From the NCBI GenBank assembly GCA_000165345.1, contig CM000435.1:736001-800000 (forward strand): a stretch of 64,000 nucleotides of DNA. Direction: 5' to 3'. Made by a program: the position numbers. Shown here piece by piece: positions 11,001-14,000 of the stretch (positions are counted from its first letter, which is position 1; the number at the start of each line of letters is the position of its first letter).

Positions 11001-14000
11001 AAAGATAACGAGACTATCACTTCTAATTCAAATTTCTTTTCTGCAATTCTTAGCAAAATTAAAAATGGAGTGAAGTTAACCTCAGATAAACAAGCTATAA
11101 GTGAAAGTAAAGAAGAAACTTTTGAAAACAATGAGTTGGAAGCCGAAACTGTAGAAGATGAAGTTCTAACTATGAAACAAGATTCCACTCCTGAACATAA
11201 TCAGTTCTTGGACAAATAGAAATCTTTTAACCCTGAATTAAAATAAAAATTATTATCCCTTTGTATAGTCCATGCCAGTAGGAAAAATTAAATAAAGTTA
11301 AGTAATCATTACAGATTGTTTTAATCGAGTGTTAAATTAGTTTTTTAAATATCAACACAATGATAAGTGAAACTGAGATAAAAACTAGCGTGACCAATGT
11401 TATTCTACAACAGAAGGTAGTGTTATTATTTGTACCGATAACTTCCTGTACCTTTCTGTTCAGGTTAAAGATGTCGGTTGTAGCAAATTCTGTAGTATTC
11501 TTAATTTCTTCAATACTTATGTTGTGTGCTTTAGCCTCGCGGCCAAGCTGTGCTGCTTTATCTGCGATTCTTAACGCCATATTTCCTACTTCTTTTATAT
11601 CTTCATCTATTCTTCTATTTTCCAAACTCCATTCATTAATTTTAGTTTTATCTGAATCACCAATTTCCCTATGCTCAACTTTGTTTGCTGAATCAGGTTT
11701 AAGCAAGAAATCATTTAAAGTTGTTGAATGTGTAATTTTTGAAAATGGATCGGTAAATAATTTATTAAATCTCGATTCAGTTATTTCAATAAACTCCTTT
11801 TCATAATTTTCAATATCAATGTACTTATTATCATCTTTATTCAGCTGATTAATGCGCAAACTGGAAGAATACTTATTGTAAATTTTCCTTAATTCCCGAA
11901 TTTCTATTTTCATTTGACTAATTAAATCCACCAACTTAATTTTTGTCAACAACTTTGGGTGATTCTCGTCGTTTTCAAGATGATCTAAAATTGTGTAAGT
12001 TGTATTATATAATTCAAACAATTTAATCTTGTGTTTTATATATTCTTGTTCAATGCTTGAAACTTCATCAATTTTCACATCAGATTCACATAGGAGTTCA
12101 ATGTGTTTAACACGCTTTAAAAGGTCTTCAATTTCATTAAAACCCCTTGTATACTTCCAGTCCATATTAAATTAAAAAAAAACTTTGCAAAAATATTTGT
12201 CATAAATGGTTGAAACAAAATATATGGATGGATGTTAATTGAACAATTAAACGGGCAAAAAGATTACAAATTTAGCTTTGTTACTCAAATTCCGTCAAAA
12301 GTTAAATGAGGATTATCCAAATTCTGATAGCAACTGATAGTTATATTTTTAAAGTTTTAATATCAGGGCAATATCTACTATGATGATTAAGATCATCTTC
12401 TGGGGTATTCACTCTAGTTGAAGCGCCAGAAGAAAATTTACTTTCATATTGATGTAGTTTTACACGCCATTCTCTATAAAGGTTGTCAAATTCTCTTTTT
12501 GTCAACCTTGTATCACATTTCGGAGTTCTGGGGTCTTCGGATGATCTTTTCTCTAAAGGAACTTGATTTATATAATTCTTGTACTCAGGTAGACTTTTCC
12601 CAATTGCTATCTGCTTTAACCGAGAAATCATTCTTGACGTCAAGGGCTCCTCAGATGCCTTTAGTTCAGTATTCTGACGTACAAAATCGCTCTTATAATT
12701 GCCATACTTTATTAATTCAGTGGATGGGAGTTTCTCAAGAAGAGATGTCAAATCAGAAAATGAAAAAAATCCCTTGTTTGGTGGTGGATCAACCTCATTA
12801 TAGATGTCAAAGTTTTTGCTATCCAAAGTGAAAAGAGAATTTTTGGACTGTATGTATTTAGAGCCTGAATTCAAATTCTTTGCTTCACTCTCTTTTACCT
12901 CGAGCTTGGGTAAATTAGGATGAACCTCAATTGCTGATACAAAATTCTTTTCTTTGACTTTCTTCCCTATCAGCAGTAATATCGATACTTCATAAACTCT
13001 GTGTGGCGTCATCGGATTGCAAAATAATGGAGTGTTGTTATCCAAATTGATCATAAATAATGTATACCACGAGTCAGCTATACGCAGTTATTTTACTCAT
13101 ACAAAACCAGCGATCAGTATCCCGGCGGCATACACAATTTTTTTTACTTTATTAAAATTAACAACAGAAAAGCCTTATAAACAAGTTATAAAAGACTTAA
13201 ATTATTGAATAAAATAGACTAAATATTCAGCAACCTATTTAATTTTAAATATACTAAGTTTACCTGGCTTCATATTGAATCATCTTTCTCGTCCTCTTTT
13301 TGTATAAAATCCTGCATCCGCAAGTTCGGCATCTAACTGCTGCGCCGTGAGATAGCAAACTAACATCAGCACCGCATTCTAAATAATGAAATCATTCAAA
13401 ATTATAACTTTTTAAAAAACTTACCACCACAAATATATGTAACTGGTTCAACCATGCCTTTATTTACATTAACTCCGTTGTTATCTAAAATTGAGGTTGT
13501 TTTACTTTCTGCACCATTCATTGTATTGAAGTTACTTTTTAAAGTTTTAAGAAACCCTCTCAATACAATATATTTTGAATTCCCAAGACTTTAATAGGCT
13601 AGTATAGGCAAAGTCGCGCAAAAAGTCCTAGTTAAAAATATTCATTAGAACAATGCAAATTGGGTACCTACGAGGGAAAACAGACAGTATTGTAAATACC
13701 GCAAAGACACGAACGTTTTGTTTTTTTTTTTTTTTATAACAATTTCAAATTATTTAAGACGTGACATTTAATACCCAAAACTCAATGTATCCATTGCAGG
13801 CCATTAATTCTTATTATTACATATTTTCCCAAAAAAAGAACTAAACTTTTTTTTCCTCAGTTATTCAATGGCCACAATTGAAATGGATTCTGTCGAAGGA
13901 TTTCAGCTGAAGCATGGCTCATTGATTGGCGGTGCAAGGAAAGGCTGTTTATGCTTATCTCTAAGACTTTCAGTTTTTTTACATGGGCTGCTGAATATTA

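What the first reader, a model, noticed from the sequence alone, without database searches (positions are those of the whole stretch)
12341..13054. SLBP-type RNA-binding domain in a unicellular AT-rich eukaryote
The C-terminal ~65 residues match the histone mRNA stem-loop-binding-protein RBD closely, including the K-Q-I-x-x-G-K, Y-x-x-Y-I-x-x-V-P and T-P-x-K elements. SLBP implies replication-dependent histone mRNAs ending in a stem-loop rather than poly(A). If true for this organism, it predicts conserved 3' stem-loops downstream of its histone genes.
Basis: partly seen in the sequence, partly recalled or inferred. Interest (0 to 1): 0.5.

Follow-up and report, generated by a model that had tools for sequence, protein, structure and literature searches.

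The report
Cryptosporidium parvum SLBP gene, already annotated
The ORF is a real gene for the Cryptosporidium parvum histone stem-loop-binding protein (SLBP), named as such in public databases, so the finding is correct but ordinary, and I could not check whether Cryptosporidium histone genes carry the matching RNA stem-loop.

Summary
Observation confirmed. Window 12341-13054 (- strand) is an intron-less 237-aa ORF. Residues 140-204 hit Pfam PF15247 SLBP_RNA_bind at 74.9 bits (cut-off 27, E=5e-21) and match solved Drosophila and human SLBP RNA-binding domains.

The protein is identical to EAK90326.1, 'SLBP family of RNA binding proteins [Cryptosporidium parvum Iowa II]'. Syntenic orthologues exist across the genus. 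It is therefore already known.

The only base-specific RNA contact of human SLBP (Arg181) is kept as R187.

The stem-loop prediction could not be tested in Cryptosporidium. The window has no histone gene, and the only Cryptosporidium histone locus I reached is the variant H2B.Z, which has no stem-loop and an AATAAA.

Relatives bracket the genus. Cyclospora, Eimeria, Plasmodium and Perkinsus canonical histone genes all carry a 6-bp/4-nt GG...CC stem-loop downstream. The prediction is therefore likely but unproven, and trypanosomes show that having an SLBP does not force poly(A)-less histone mRNAs.

One small new lead: all 12 orthologues whose gene model includes the N-terminus keep a Y-x4-L-L motif there, the canonical eIF4E-binding pattern.

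The parts
12341..13054 (-). Complete coding sequence (237 aa plus stop) of the C. parvum SLBP-family protein. No intron is needed.
   Evidence: ORF. Identical to EAK90326.1 / QOY40641.1 / WKS79010.1. Collinear with 12 orthologues. Synteny with C. muris is conserved.
12443..12649 (-). SLBP RNA-binding domain, residues 136-204 (EPLTSRMISRLKQIAIGKSLPEYKNYINQVPLEKRSSEDPRTPKCDTRLTKREFDNLYREWRVKLHQYE).
   Evidence: Pfam PF15247 at 74.9 bits. PDB matches 4tux and 4l8r. Nearly invariant across the genus. Coordinates checked by translation. The AF2 model places three helices at 140-151, 155-164 and 186-204, but at low confidence.
12521..12526 (-). T177-P178, which align with human Thr171-Pro172 of the TPNK motif (the phospho-regulated site in animals).
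   Evidence: Alignment to human and Drosophila chains. T and P are invariant in 13 Cryptosporidium sequences. Role of Thr171 taken from PMC10388802.
12494..12496 (-). R187 codon, which aligns with human Arg181, the only base-specific contact to the stem-loop (G7).
   Evidence: Alignment (human ..YSRRSW.. against ..LTKREF..). Conserved in at least 90% of the genus, K in C. felis. Role of Arg181 taken from PMC10388802. The coordinate was derived with the same formula that was verified.
12974..13000 (-). Residues 19-27, R-V-Y-E-V-S-I-L-L: an N-terminal island that fits the canonical eIF4E-binding pattern Y-x4-L-phi. Its function is inferred, not shown.
   Evidence: R19, Y21, L26 and L27 are at least 90% conserved in an otherwise divergent N-terminus. 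Y-x4-L-L is present in all 12 orthologues whose model includes the N-terminus. The motif occurs in only 3 of 146 other SLBP homologues. Translation checked.
12899..12928 (-). Residues 43-52, E-V-H-P-N-L-P-K-L-E: second conserved N-terminal island, 16 residues after the Y-x4-L-L motif. Function unknown.
   Evidence: P46, P49 and L51 are invariant. Translation checked.
12725..12775 (-). Residues 94-110, KGFFSFSDLTSLLEKLP: third conserved N-terminal island. Function unknown.
   Evidence: S100 and D101 are invariant. Translation checked.
12398..12430 (-). Residues 209-219, SGASTRVNTPE: conserved Ser/Thr-rich tail after the RNA-binding domain. Possible phosphorylation region (inferred).
   Evidence: S209, T213 and R214 are invariant. 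Translation checked.

Best explanation
This is the single-exon gene for the Cryptosporidium parvum orthologue of stem-loop-binding protein (SLBP, histone RNA hairpin-binding protein). Shown: it encodes a bona fide SLBP-type RNA-binding domain near the C-terminus. That domain is conserved and syntenic across the genus. It retains the arginine that reads the second G of the histone stem-loop in the human complex, and the Thr-Pro of the phospho-regulated loop. Inferred: the protein binds a 6-bp/4-nt stem-loop in the 3' UTR of the replication-dependent histone mRNAs (H2A, H2B, H3, H4) of Cryptosporidium and links them to 3'-end formation, stability and/or translation during S phase. The genus-specific N-terminal half would supply the effector contacts, possibly a direct eIF4E contact through the conserved Y-x4-L-L motif.
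For: Domain: PF15247 at 74.9 bits, E=5e-21, plus matches to solved SLBP domains. Real, conserved gene: exact protein on record in several C. parvum assemblies and many sequencing runs. Orthologues exist in 11 other Cryptosporidium species with a near-invariant domain. The gene order RPABC4 - SLBP - 277/285-aa gene - 318-aa gene is shared by C. parvum and C. muris. Key residues: R187 aligns with human Arg181 and T177-P178 with Thr171-Pro172. Family context: 1567 representatives match the domain. The nearest are piroplasm proteins and three unnamed, Asn-rich, probably Plasmodium proteins, all sharing the signature SRLKxIAxGKS. Cognate RNA in relatives: GGCUUC-NCUA-GAAGCC-ACC lies downstream of Cyclospora H2A and H3 and of Eimeria H2A and its neighbouring histone gene. 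GGUUUC-ACUA-GAAGCC lies downstream of Plasmodium H2A. GGYGUU-N4-RRCRCC-AUCU lies downstream of three Perkinsus histone genes. The same strict pattern occurs only twice in 128 kb of window sequence counting both strands. T. gondii canonical histone mRNAs are poorly captured by poly(A) selection (PMC7733022). P. vivax SLBP expression rises just before core histone mRNAs (PMC7224573).
Against: No canonical Cryptosporidium histone gene could be examined, so the cognate stem-loop is not shown in this genus. The one Cryptosporidium histone locus reached (H2B.Z of C. muris, C. serpentis and relatives) has no stem-loop within 10 kb and has AATAAA about 70 nt after the stop. That is expected for a variant histone and is therefore uninformative. 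The TPNK motif is TPKC, and human Tyr144 is Ile here. SLBP-domain proteins in trypanosomes work on polyadenylated mRNAs. The AF2 model is poor (mean pLDDT 49). No RNA-binding or expression data for this protein were found in the literature searched.
Confidence: 0.72

Rival explanations
1. The protein is a true SLBP-family member, but it works as trypanosome SLBP2 does. It would partner a cap-binding eIF4E on polyadenylated S-phase mRNAs, or on histone mRNAs that carry both a stem-loop and poly(A). Cryptosporidium histone mRNAs would then not end in a stem-loop.
For: T. brucei EIF4E2 binds SLBP2 directly, and kinetoplastid histone mRNAs are polyadenylated. Physarum histone mRNAs carry both signals. 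The Cryptosporidium N-terminus has a conserved Y-x4-L-L motif. No U7 snRNA or other Rfam family was detected in the window, though that is only 64 kb.
Against: The domain keeps the G-reading arginine. Alveolate relatives on both sides of Cryptosporidium have canonical-looking histone stem-loops. T. gondii histone mRNAs behave as poly(A)-poor.
Confidence: 0.2
2. The domain is a degenerate relic: the protein no longer binds RNA specifically and has taken on another role.
For: TPNK has changed to TPKC, and Tyr144 to Ile. The N-terminal half has no homologue outside the genus.
Against: About 50 of 69 domain positions are invariant across species that share only 37-40% identity overall. That indicates strong purifying selection on exactly the RNA-binding domain. 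The Ile replacement and the SRLKxIAxGKS signature are shared with piroplasm proteins and with the Asn-rich, probably Plasmodium hits P0298/P0301/P0357, and Plasmodium H2A carries a stem-loop.
Confidence: 0.05
3. The match is a chance resemblance in a non-coding ORF.
For: None.
Against: E=5e-21 against Pfam. The ORF is conserved and syntenic in 12 species.
Confidence: 0.01

Closest known systems
Animal SLBP (human SLBP, PDB 4L8R/4QOZ; Drosophila SLBP, PDB 4TUX/4TUW/4TV0)
   Same: The ~70-residue RNA-binding domain is shared (PF15247). So are KQIxxGK, YxxYIxxVP, Thr-Pro in the inter-helix loop, the Arg181 equivalent, and W190/H195 in the last helix.
   Different: TPNK is TPKC and Tyr144 is Ile. 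The domain sits near the C-terminus of a short 237-aa protein. The N-terminal half shows no detectable similarity to animal SLBP regions. Partner machinery (U7 snRNP, FLASH, SLIP1) is unknown here.
Apicomplexan 'histone RNA hairpin-binding protein' genes (Babesia, Theileria; unnamed Plasmodium-like hits P0298/P0301/P0357; P. vivax PVP01_1014900 is the annotated example in the literature)
   Same: These are the closest domains outside the genus. They share the signature SRLK(Q/D/E)IA(I/V)GKS..(E/G)Y(K/Q)NY and the D-P-x-T-P loop.
   Different: In piroplasms and the Plasmodium-like hits the domain is at the extreme C-terminus of longer proteins (320-510 aa), and the Arg181-equivalent position is Ala with the basic residue shifted by one. 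Cryptosporidium keeps the animal-like K-R-E-F. The N-terminal regions are unrelated.
Trypanosoma brucei SLBP2-EIF4E2 complex
   Same: An SLBP-domain protein in a protist that contacts a cap-binding protein directly. It is a precedent for the proposed role of the Cryptosporidium N-terminal motif.
   Different: The T. brucei contact uses a central segment without a canonical 4E-binding motif, and its histone mRNAs are polyadenylated. In Cryptosporidium the candidate motif is canonical (Y-x4-L-L) and N-terminal, and no interaction has been tested.

Membership tests
SLBP / histone RNA hairpin-binding protein family (Pfam PF15247) | Significant match to the SLBP_RNA_bind profile above the curated cut-off | tested here: met
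   74.9 bits against a cut-off of 27, E=5.1e-21, profile positions 4-69 of 70.
SLBP / histone RNA hairpin-binding protein family (Pfam PF15247) | Sequence similarity to experimentally solved SLBP RNA-binding domains | tested here: met
   4tux E=3.5e-10 and 4l8r/4qoz E=3.9e-7, with full-length domain alignments.
SLBP / histone RNA hairpin-binding protein family (Pfam PF15247) | Arginine equivalent to human Arg181, the sole base-specific contact to G7 of the stem-loop | tested here: met
   R187 aligns with Arg181. Conserved in at least 90% of the genus. Role taken from PMC10388802.
SLBP / histone RNA hairpin-binding protein family (Pfam PF15247) | TPNK motif (phospho-Thr171, Pro172) between helices B and C | tested here: inconclusive
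   T177-P178 are invariant, but the motif reads TPKC (TPRY, TPEC or TPKH in other species). The N-K half is not kept.
SLBP / histone RNA hairpin-binding protein family (Pfam PF15247) | Three-helix fold of the RNA-binding domain | tested here: inconclusive
   The AF2 model gives helices at 140-151, 155-164 and 186-204, matching the expected layout. Mean pLDDT is 49 and the domain scores 54-70, which is too poor for a fold search.
SLBP / histone RNA hairpin-binding protein family (Pfam PF15247) | Cognate 6-bp/4-nt stem-loop downstream of replication-dependent histone genes in the same genome | not testable with these tools
   There is no histone gene in the window. Only Cryptosporidium H2B.Z was reachable, and it has no stem-loop. 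The stem-loop is present in Cyclospora, Eimeria, Plasmodium and Perkinsus.
SLBP / histone RNA hairpin-binding protein family (Pfam PF15247) | Specific high-affinity binding to the histone stem-loop RNA | not testable with these tools
   Needs a gel-shift or CLIP experiment.
Metazoan-type U7-dependent histone pre-mRNA processing system | U7 snRNA, Lsm10/Lsm11, FLASH and a purine-rich downstream element | not tested
   Only the 64-kb window was scanned with Rfam, which found no U7 or any other family at gathering score. The rest of the genome was not available.
eIF4E-binding proteins (canonical 4E-binding motif) | Y-x4-L-phi motif | tested here: met
   Y21-E-V-S-I-L26-L27. Present in all 12 orthologues whose model includes the N-terminus.
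eIF4E-binding proteins (canonical 4E-binding motif) | Physical binding to eIF4E | not testable with these tools
   No complex prediction or experiment was possible. A short motif alone is weak evidence.

The most novel reading that the evidence does not exclude
Cryptosporidium SLBP carries a genus-wide, canonical eIF4E-binding motif at its N-terminus: R-x-Y-x4-L-L at residues 19-27. It is followed 16 residues later by a second conserved hydrophobic/proline island, H-P-x-L-P-x-L. The protein could therefore bridge the 3' stem-loop directly to the cap-binding protein, giving a one-protein closed loop for histone mRNA translation or repression without SLIP1/eIF4G. An unidentified eukaryote's SLBP (P0367) has a textbook KYSREFLLSF in front of its RNA-binding domain, which suggests the arrangement arose more than once.
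Probability: 0.25. Interest if true: 0.45.

Novelty: already known. Interest (0 to 1): 0.12.

Why it matters
The gene itself adds nothing new. It has been labelled 'SLBP family of RNA binding proteins' in the C. parvum Iowa II annotation. From memory (the paper was not retrievable here), SLBP and histone stem-loops in alveolates were described by Davila Lopez and Samuelsson in 2008.

The finding still matters in a modest way. It marks Cryptosporidium as an organism whose histone supply is probably controlled through a stem-loop/SLBP pathway that ends in the CPSF73-type nuclease. According to titles in the reference list of PMC7733022, that enzyme is the target of anti-cryptosporidial benzoxaboroles.

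The conserved N-terminal Y-x4-L-L motif gives a cheap, testable idea for how a minimal parasite couples histone mRNA 3' ends to the cap.

Tried and rejected
1. Histone genes in the window: tblastn with human H2A, H2B, H3 and H4 found nothing.

2. Reaching Cryptosporidium canonical histone genes:
- A homology search with a Plasmodium-like H2B returned only the H2B.Z variant of C. muris/C. serpentis (P0039).
- A search with P. falciparum H2A returned no Cryptosporidium protein in the best 120.
- Five unnamed candidates (P0063, P0201, P0115, P0131, P0093) were looked up. None looked like Cryptosporidium: three sit on contigs with much shorter intergenic spacers or higher GC than the Cryptosporidium loci. 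P0131 is on metagenome scaffolds labelled BOIS22, possibly a gregarine. P0093 is in an AT-rich histone cluster with reverse-transcriptase ORFs.

3. Rfam: at gathering score the window and the C. muris H2B.Z locus give no Histone3 hit. A permissive scan of the H2B.Z 3' flank gives only noise.

4. Literature: Davila Lopez and Samuelsson 2008, Tan et al. 2013, Dominski et al. 2001 and the Marzluff reviews are not held. Searches for SLBP with Cryptosporidium or Toxoplasma gave no experimental work on the apicomplexan protein.

5. Structure: the AF2 model was too poor (pLDDT 49) to justify a fold search, so none was run.

6. E2F-type promoter element upstream of the gene: C. muris has CCGCCAAA at -65, but C. 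parvum has only a GC-rich GCCGCCGGGA at about -75 that does not fit the pattern. Not pursued.

7. The covariation count on the alveolate stem-loops is partly circular, because the sequences were picked by a scan that required pairing. I rely instead on their position just downstream of histone genes and on the rarity of the pattern elsewhere.
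Full report
**What is there**

The window is AT-rich (25-37% GC in 2-kb windows, 31% overall). At 12341-13054 on the minus strand there is one uninterrupted ORF of 237 codons that starts with ATG. Scanned against Pfam-A it gives a single hit, PF15247 SLBP_RNA_bind. The score is 74.9 bits against a curated cut-off of 27, E=5.1e-21, with residues 140-204 covering positions 4-69 of the 70-position profile. Against all PDB chain sequences the only significant matches are the solved RNA-binding domains of Drosophila SLBP (4tux, 4tv0, 4tuw; E about 1e-10) and human SLBP (4l8r/4qoz; E about 1e-7).

**Whose gene it is**

The exact protein is on record as EAK90326.1, 'SLBP family of RNA binding proteins [Cryptosporidium parvum Iowa II]'. 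It also appears in other C. parvum assemblies, for example chromosome CP141124.1 of 1.36 Mb. C. hominis, C. tyzzeri and C. meleagridis versions fall in the same 90% cluster. A homology search found orthologues in 11 further Cryptosporidium species or lineages at 96% down to 38% identity. Several are named SLBP-like or 'histone RNA hairpin-binding protein' by their sources. Gene order is the same in C. parvum and the distant C. muris: a 263-aa gene, the small RNA-polymerase subunit RPABC4, then SLBP, a 277/285-aa gene and a 318-aa gene. This is a real, conserved and already annotated gene.

**Anatomy**

In the 13-sequence alignment residues ~136-204 are almost invariant, although the full proteins share as little as 37% identity.

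Aligned to the human chain:
- K147-Q-I-A-I-G-K153 matches KQINYGK.
- Y158-K-N-Y-I-N-Q-V-P166 matches YDRYIKEVP.
- T177-P178 matches Thr171-Pro172.
- R187 matches Arg181.
- W196 and H201 match W190 and H195.

[quoted passage not shown] Phosphorylation of Thr171 in the TPNK motif raises affinity 7-11-fold. Both residues are kept.

Two departures from the animal domain:
- Human Tyr144 is Ile here.

The AF2 model built on the 13 orthologues is poor (mean pLDDT 49). It does place three helices at 140-151, 155-164 and 186-204, the expected layout. I did not run a fold search on such a model.

**Family context**

A profile of the 13 sequences was searched against 1.84 billion representatives. It finds 1567 proteins at E<=1e-3, and outside the genus only the RNA-binding domain matches.
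- The nearest named relatives are Babesia and Theileria 'histone RNA hairpin-binding' proteins.
- Three unnamed, Asn-rich proteins (P0298, P0301, P0357) carry the same domain flavour, SRLK(Q/D/E)IA(I/V)GKS...YxNY. I take them to be Plasmodium from their composition, but their names were never looked up.
- A dinoflagellate sequence also ranks high.

The gene therefore looks vertically inherited within the apicomplexan/dinoflagellate lineage. Cryptosporidium keeps the animal-like K-R-E-F around the Arg181 position. The piroplasm and Plasmodium-like proteins have Ala there, with the basic residue shifted by one.

**The prediction about histone stem-loops**

The window holds no histone gene, and the tools give no free access to the rest of the genome. 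I spent the remaining two homology searches and eleven contig look-ups on histone loci.

The only Cryptosporidium histone I reached is P0039 (C. muris, C. serpentis and relatives). Its N-terminus, GPAQKQQAAKKTAGK, identifies it as the H2B.Z variant, like the Babesia, Theileria, Vitrella and Chromera sequences retrieved with it. Its 3' flank is 97% conserved among six assemblies and contains AATAAA about 70 nt after the stop. It has no stem-loop by Rfam RF00032 at gathering or permissive thresholds, and none by a strict pattern scan over 20 kb. A variant histone is expected to be polyadenylated, so this says nothing about the canonical genes. The prediction stays untested in Cryptosporidium itself.

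**Bracketing evidence**

I used a strict scan: a 6-bp stem beginning GG and ending CC, a 4-nt loop, G-U pairs allowed. Together with Rfam, it found a stem-loop on the sense strand downstream of every canonical histone gene I could fetch from relatives.

| Organism and gene | Stem-loop | Evidence |
|---|---|---|
| Cyclospora H2A | UUUUA-GGCUUC-UCUA-GAAGCC-ACC, 100 nt after the stop | RF00032 26.9 bits; |
| Cyclospora H3 (divergent neighbour) | GGCUUC-ACUA-GAAGCC-ACC | RF00032 26.0 bits; |
| Eimeria flavescens H2A and its neighbouring histone gene | same stem | |
| P. falciparum and P. reichenowi H2A | GGUUUC-ACUA-GAAGCC, about 560 nt after the stop | |
| Perkinsus marinus, three histone genes | GGYGUU-N4-RRCRCC-AUCU, 43-56 nt after the stop for the two genes whose stop lies in the locus | |

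A positive control worked: an unidentified AT-rich eukaryote's histone cluster scored 36 bits, above the gathering score. The same strict pattern occurs only twice in the 128 kb of window sequence counting both strands, and neither copy has a U-rich loop.

Across the ten aligned stem-loops, four of six pairs change on both sides while staying paired. That count is partly circular because the scan required pairing. The position of the stem-loops is the independent evidence.

The literature agrees:
- Perkinsus histone mRNAs have stem-loops (PMC6723414).
- T. gondii canonical histone mRNAs are poorly recovered by poly(A) selection and rise in CPSF3 mutants (PMC7733022).
- P. vivax SLBP expression precedes the core histone peak (PMC7224573).

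Lineages on both sides of Cryptosporidium have the RNA element, and Cryptosporidium keeps a strongly constrained binding domain. I put the chance that its canonical histone genes carry a stem-loop at roughly 0.75-0.8.

**Why the implication is not automatic**

T. brucei has SLBP-domain proteins although kinetoplastid histone mRNAs are polyadenylated. Its SLBP2 is the sole stable partner of the cap-binding protein EIF4E2, and the complex associates with S-phase mRNAs. Physarum histone mRNAs carry both a stem-loop and a poly(A) signal. So 'stem-loop rather than poly(A)' is one of several outcomes compatible with having an SLBP.

**A small new lead**

The N-terminal 135 residues are genus-specific and mostly divergent, but contain three conserved islands.
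- The first island, residues 19-27 (R-V-Y-E-V-S-I-L-L), has R19, Y21, L26 and L27 conserved in at least 90% of sequences. It reads Y-x4-L-L in all 12 orthologues whose model includes the N-terminus. This is the canonical eIF4E-binding pattern. From my own knowledge, eIF4G has KKRYDREFLLGF and 4E-BP1 has RIIYDRKFLM.
- The second island (E-V-H-P-x-L-P-K-L-E) lies 16 residues downstream. From my own knowledge, that is roughly where bipartite 4E-binding proteins carry their non-canonical motif.
- Among 146 other SLBP homologues the canonical pattern occurs in only three. One of them, P0367 from an unidentified JGI sample, has a textbook KYSREFLLSF ahead of its RNA-binding domain.

A seven-residue pattern falling in one of three conserved islands has a chance probability of a few percent by my rough estimate. 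I treat this as a hypothesis at about 0.25, not a finding.

**Verdict**

The gene is already annotated and belongs to a family already described in alveolates (the 2008 paper is recalled from memory). The stem-loop prediction is plausible from bracketing but untested in this genus. Novelty: already known. Interest: low.

Noticed in passing
window 13260-13521 (- strand): Directly upstream of SLBP lies the small RNA-polymerase subunit RPABC4 (Zn-ribbon, PF03604). It has two exons split by a ~46-nt GTAAGT...TTTAG intron inside the codons for ...VTYICG|ECGADV.... Automated models in C. ubiquitum (P0002) and C. felis (P0007) wrongly fuse this exon to SLBP. The C. felis entry is also misnamed 'Serine/threonine-protein phosphatase 4 catalytic subunit'.
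   Followed up: partly
L025 3959-3974 and L024 3953-3968 (P. reichenowi / P. falciparum H2A locus): A GC-containing stem-loop, GGUUUC-ACUA-GAAGCC, sits about 560 nt downstream of the Plasmodium H2A stop codon in a 15%-GC region. Its 3' arm and loop are identical to the coccidian histone H3 stem-loop (GGCUUC-ACUA-GAAGCC), with one C-to-U change in the 5' arm. This suggests a conserved apicomplexan histone stem-loop that scores below the Rfam gathering cut-off (15.8 bits here, 26-27 bits in Cyclospora).
   Followed up: partly
P0367 (325 aa, JGI sample, organism unknown): An SLBP homologue with a textbook eIF4E-binding motif, GKYSREFLLSFKD, about 90 residues upstream of a canonical TPNK-containing RNA-binding domain.
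   Followed up: partly
P0254, P0259, P0400 (Babesia bigemina, B. duncani, B. bovis SLBP), residues 1-25: Piroplasm SLBPs share an extreme N-terminal block, M(T/A)S(C/Y)RW(V/A)DV.SS(D/E)SCASF(G/D)RTAL(L/M), which contains F-x4-L-(L/M). This is a Phe variant of the 4E-binding pattern, at the same end of the protein as the Cryptosporidium motif.
   Followed up: no
window 13118-13133; L029 about 3936-3943: In the AT-rich spacer upstream of SLBP there is a GC-rich element about 65-75 nt before the ATG. C. muris has CCGCCAAA, which is E2F-like (TTTGGCGG on the other strand). C. parvum has GCCGCCGGGA, which does not fit the E2F pattern I used.
   Followed up: partly
window 4306-5946 (+), 6433-7368 (+), 8818-9798 (-), 14977-15768 (+), 15866-19249 (-), 19608-20180 (-), 20985-22850 (+): The neighbouring genes are ordinary housekeeping genes. 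In order: CCT/TCP-1 chaperonin subunit, CCCH zinc-finger protein, DHHC palmitoyltransferase, SWIB-domain protein, importin-beta family protein, UPF0172/MPN-like protein and CLPTM1. The ORFs at 10254-11219, 11332-12165 and 13868-14659 have no Pfam hit.
   Followed up: partly
L012 5926-5941 (- strand), Logan run SRR22824304, organism unknown: An H2A-H4 gene pair from an unidentified 54%-GC eukaryote has ACCAAC-GGUGUU-UUCA-AACACC about 28 nt after the H4 stop. No equivalent was seen after the H2A gene.
   Followed up: no
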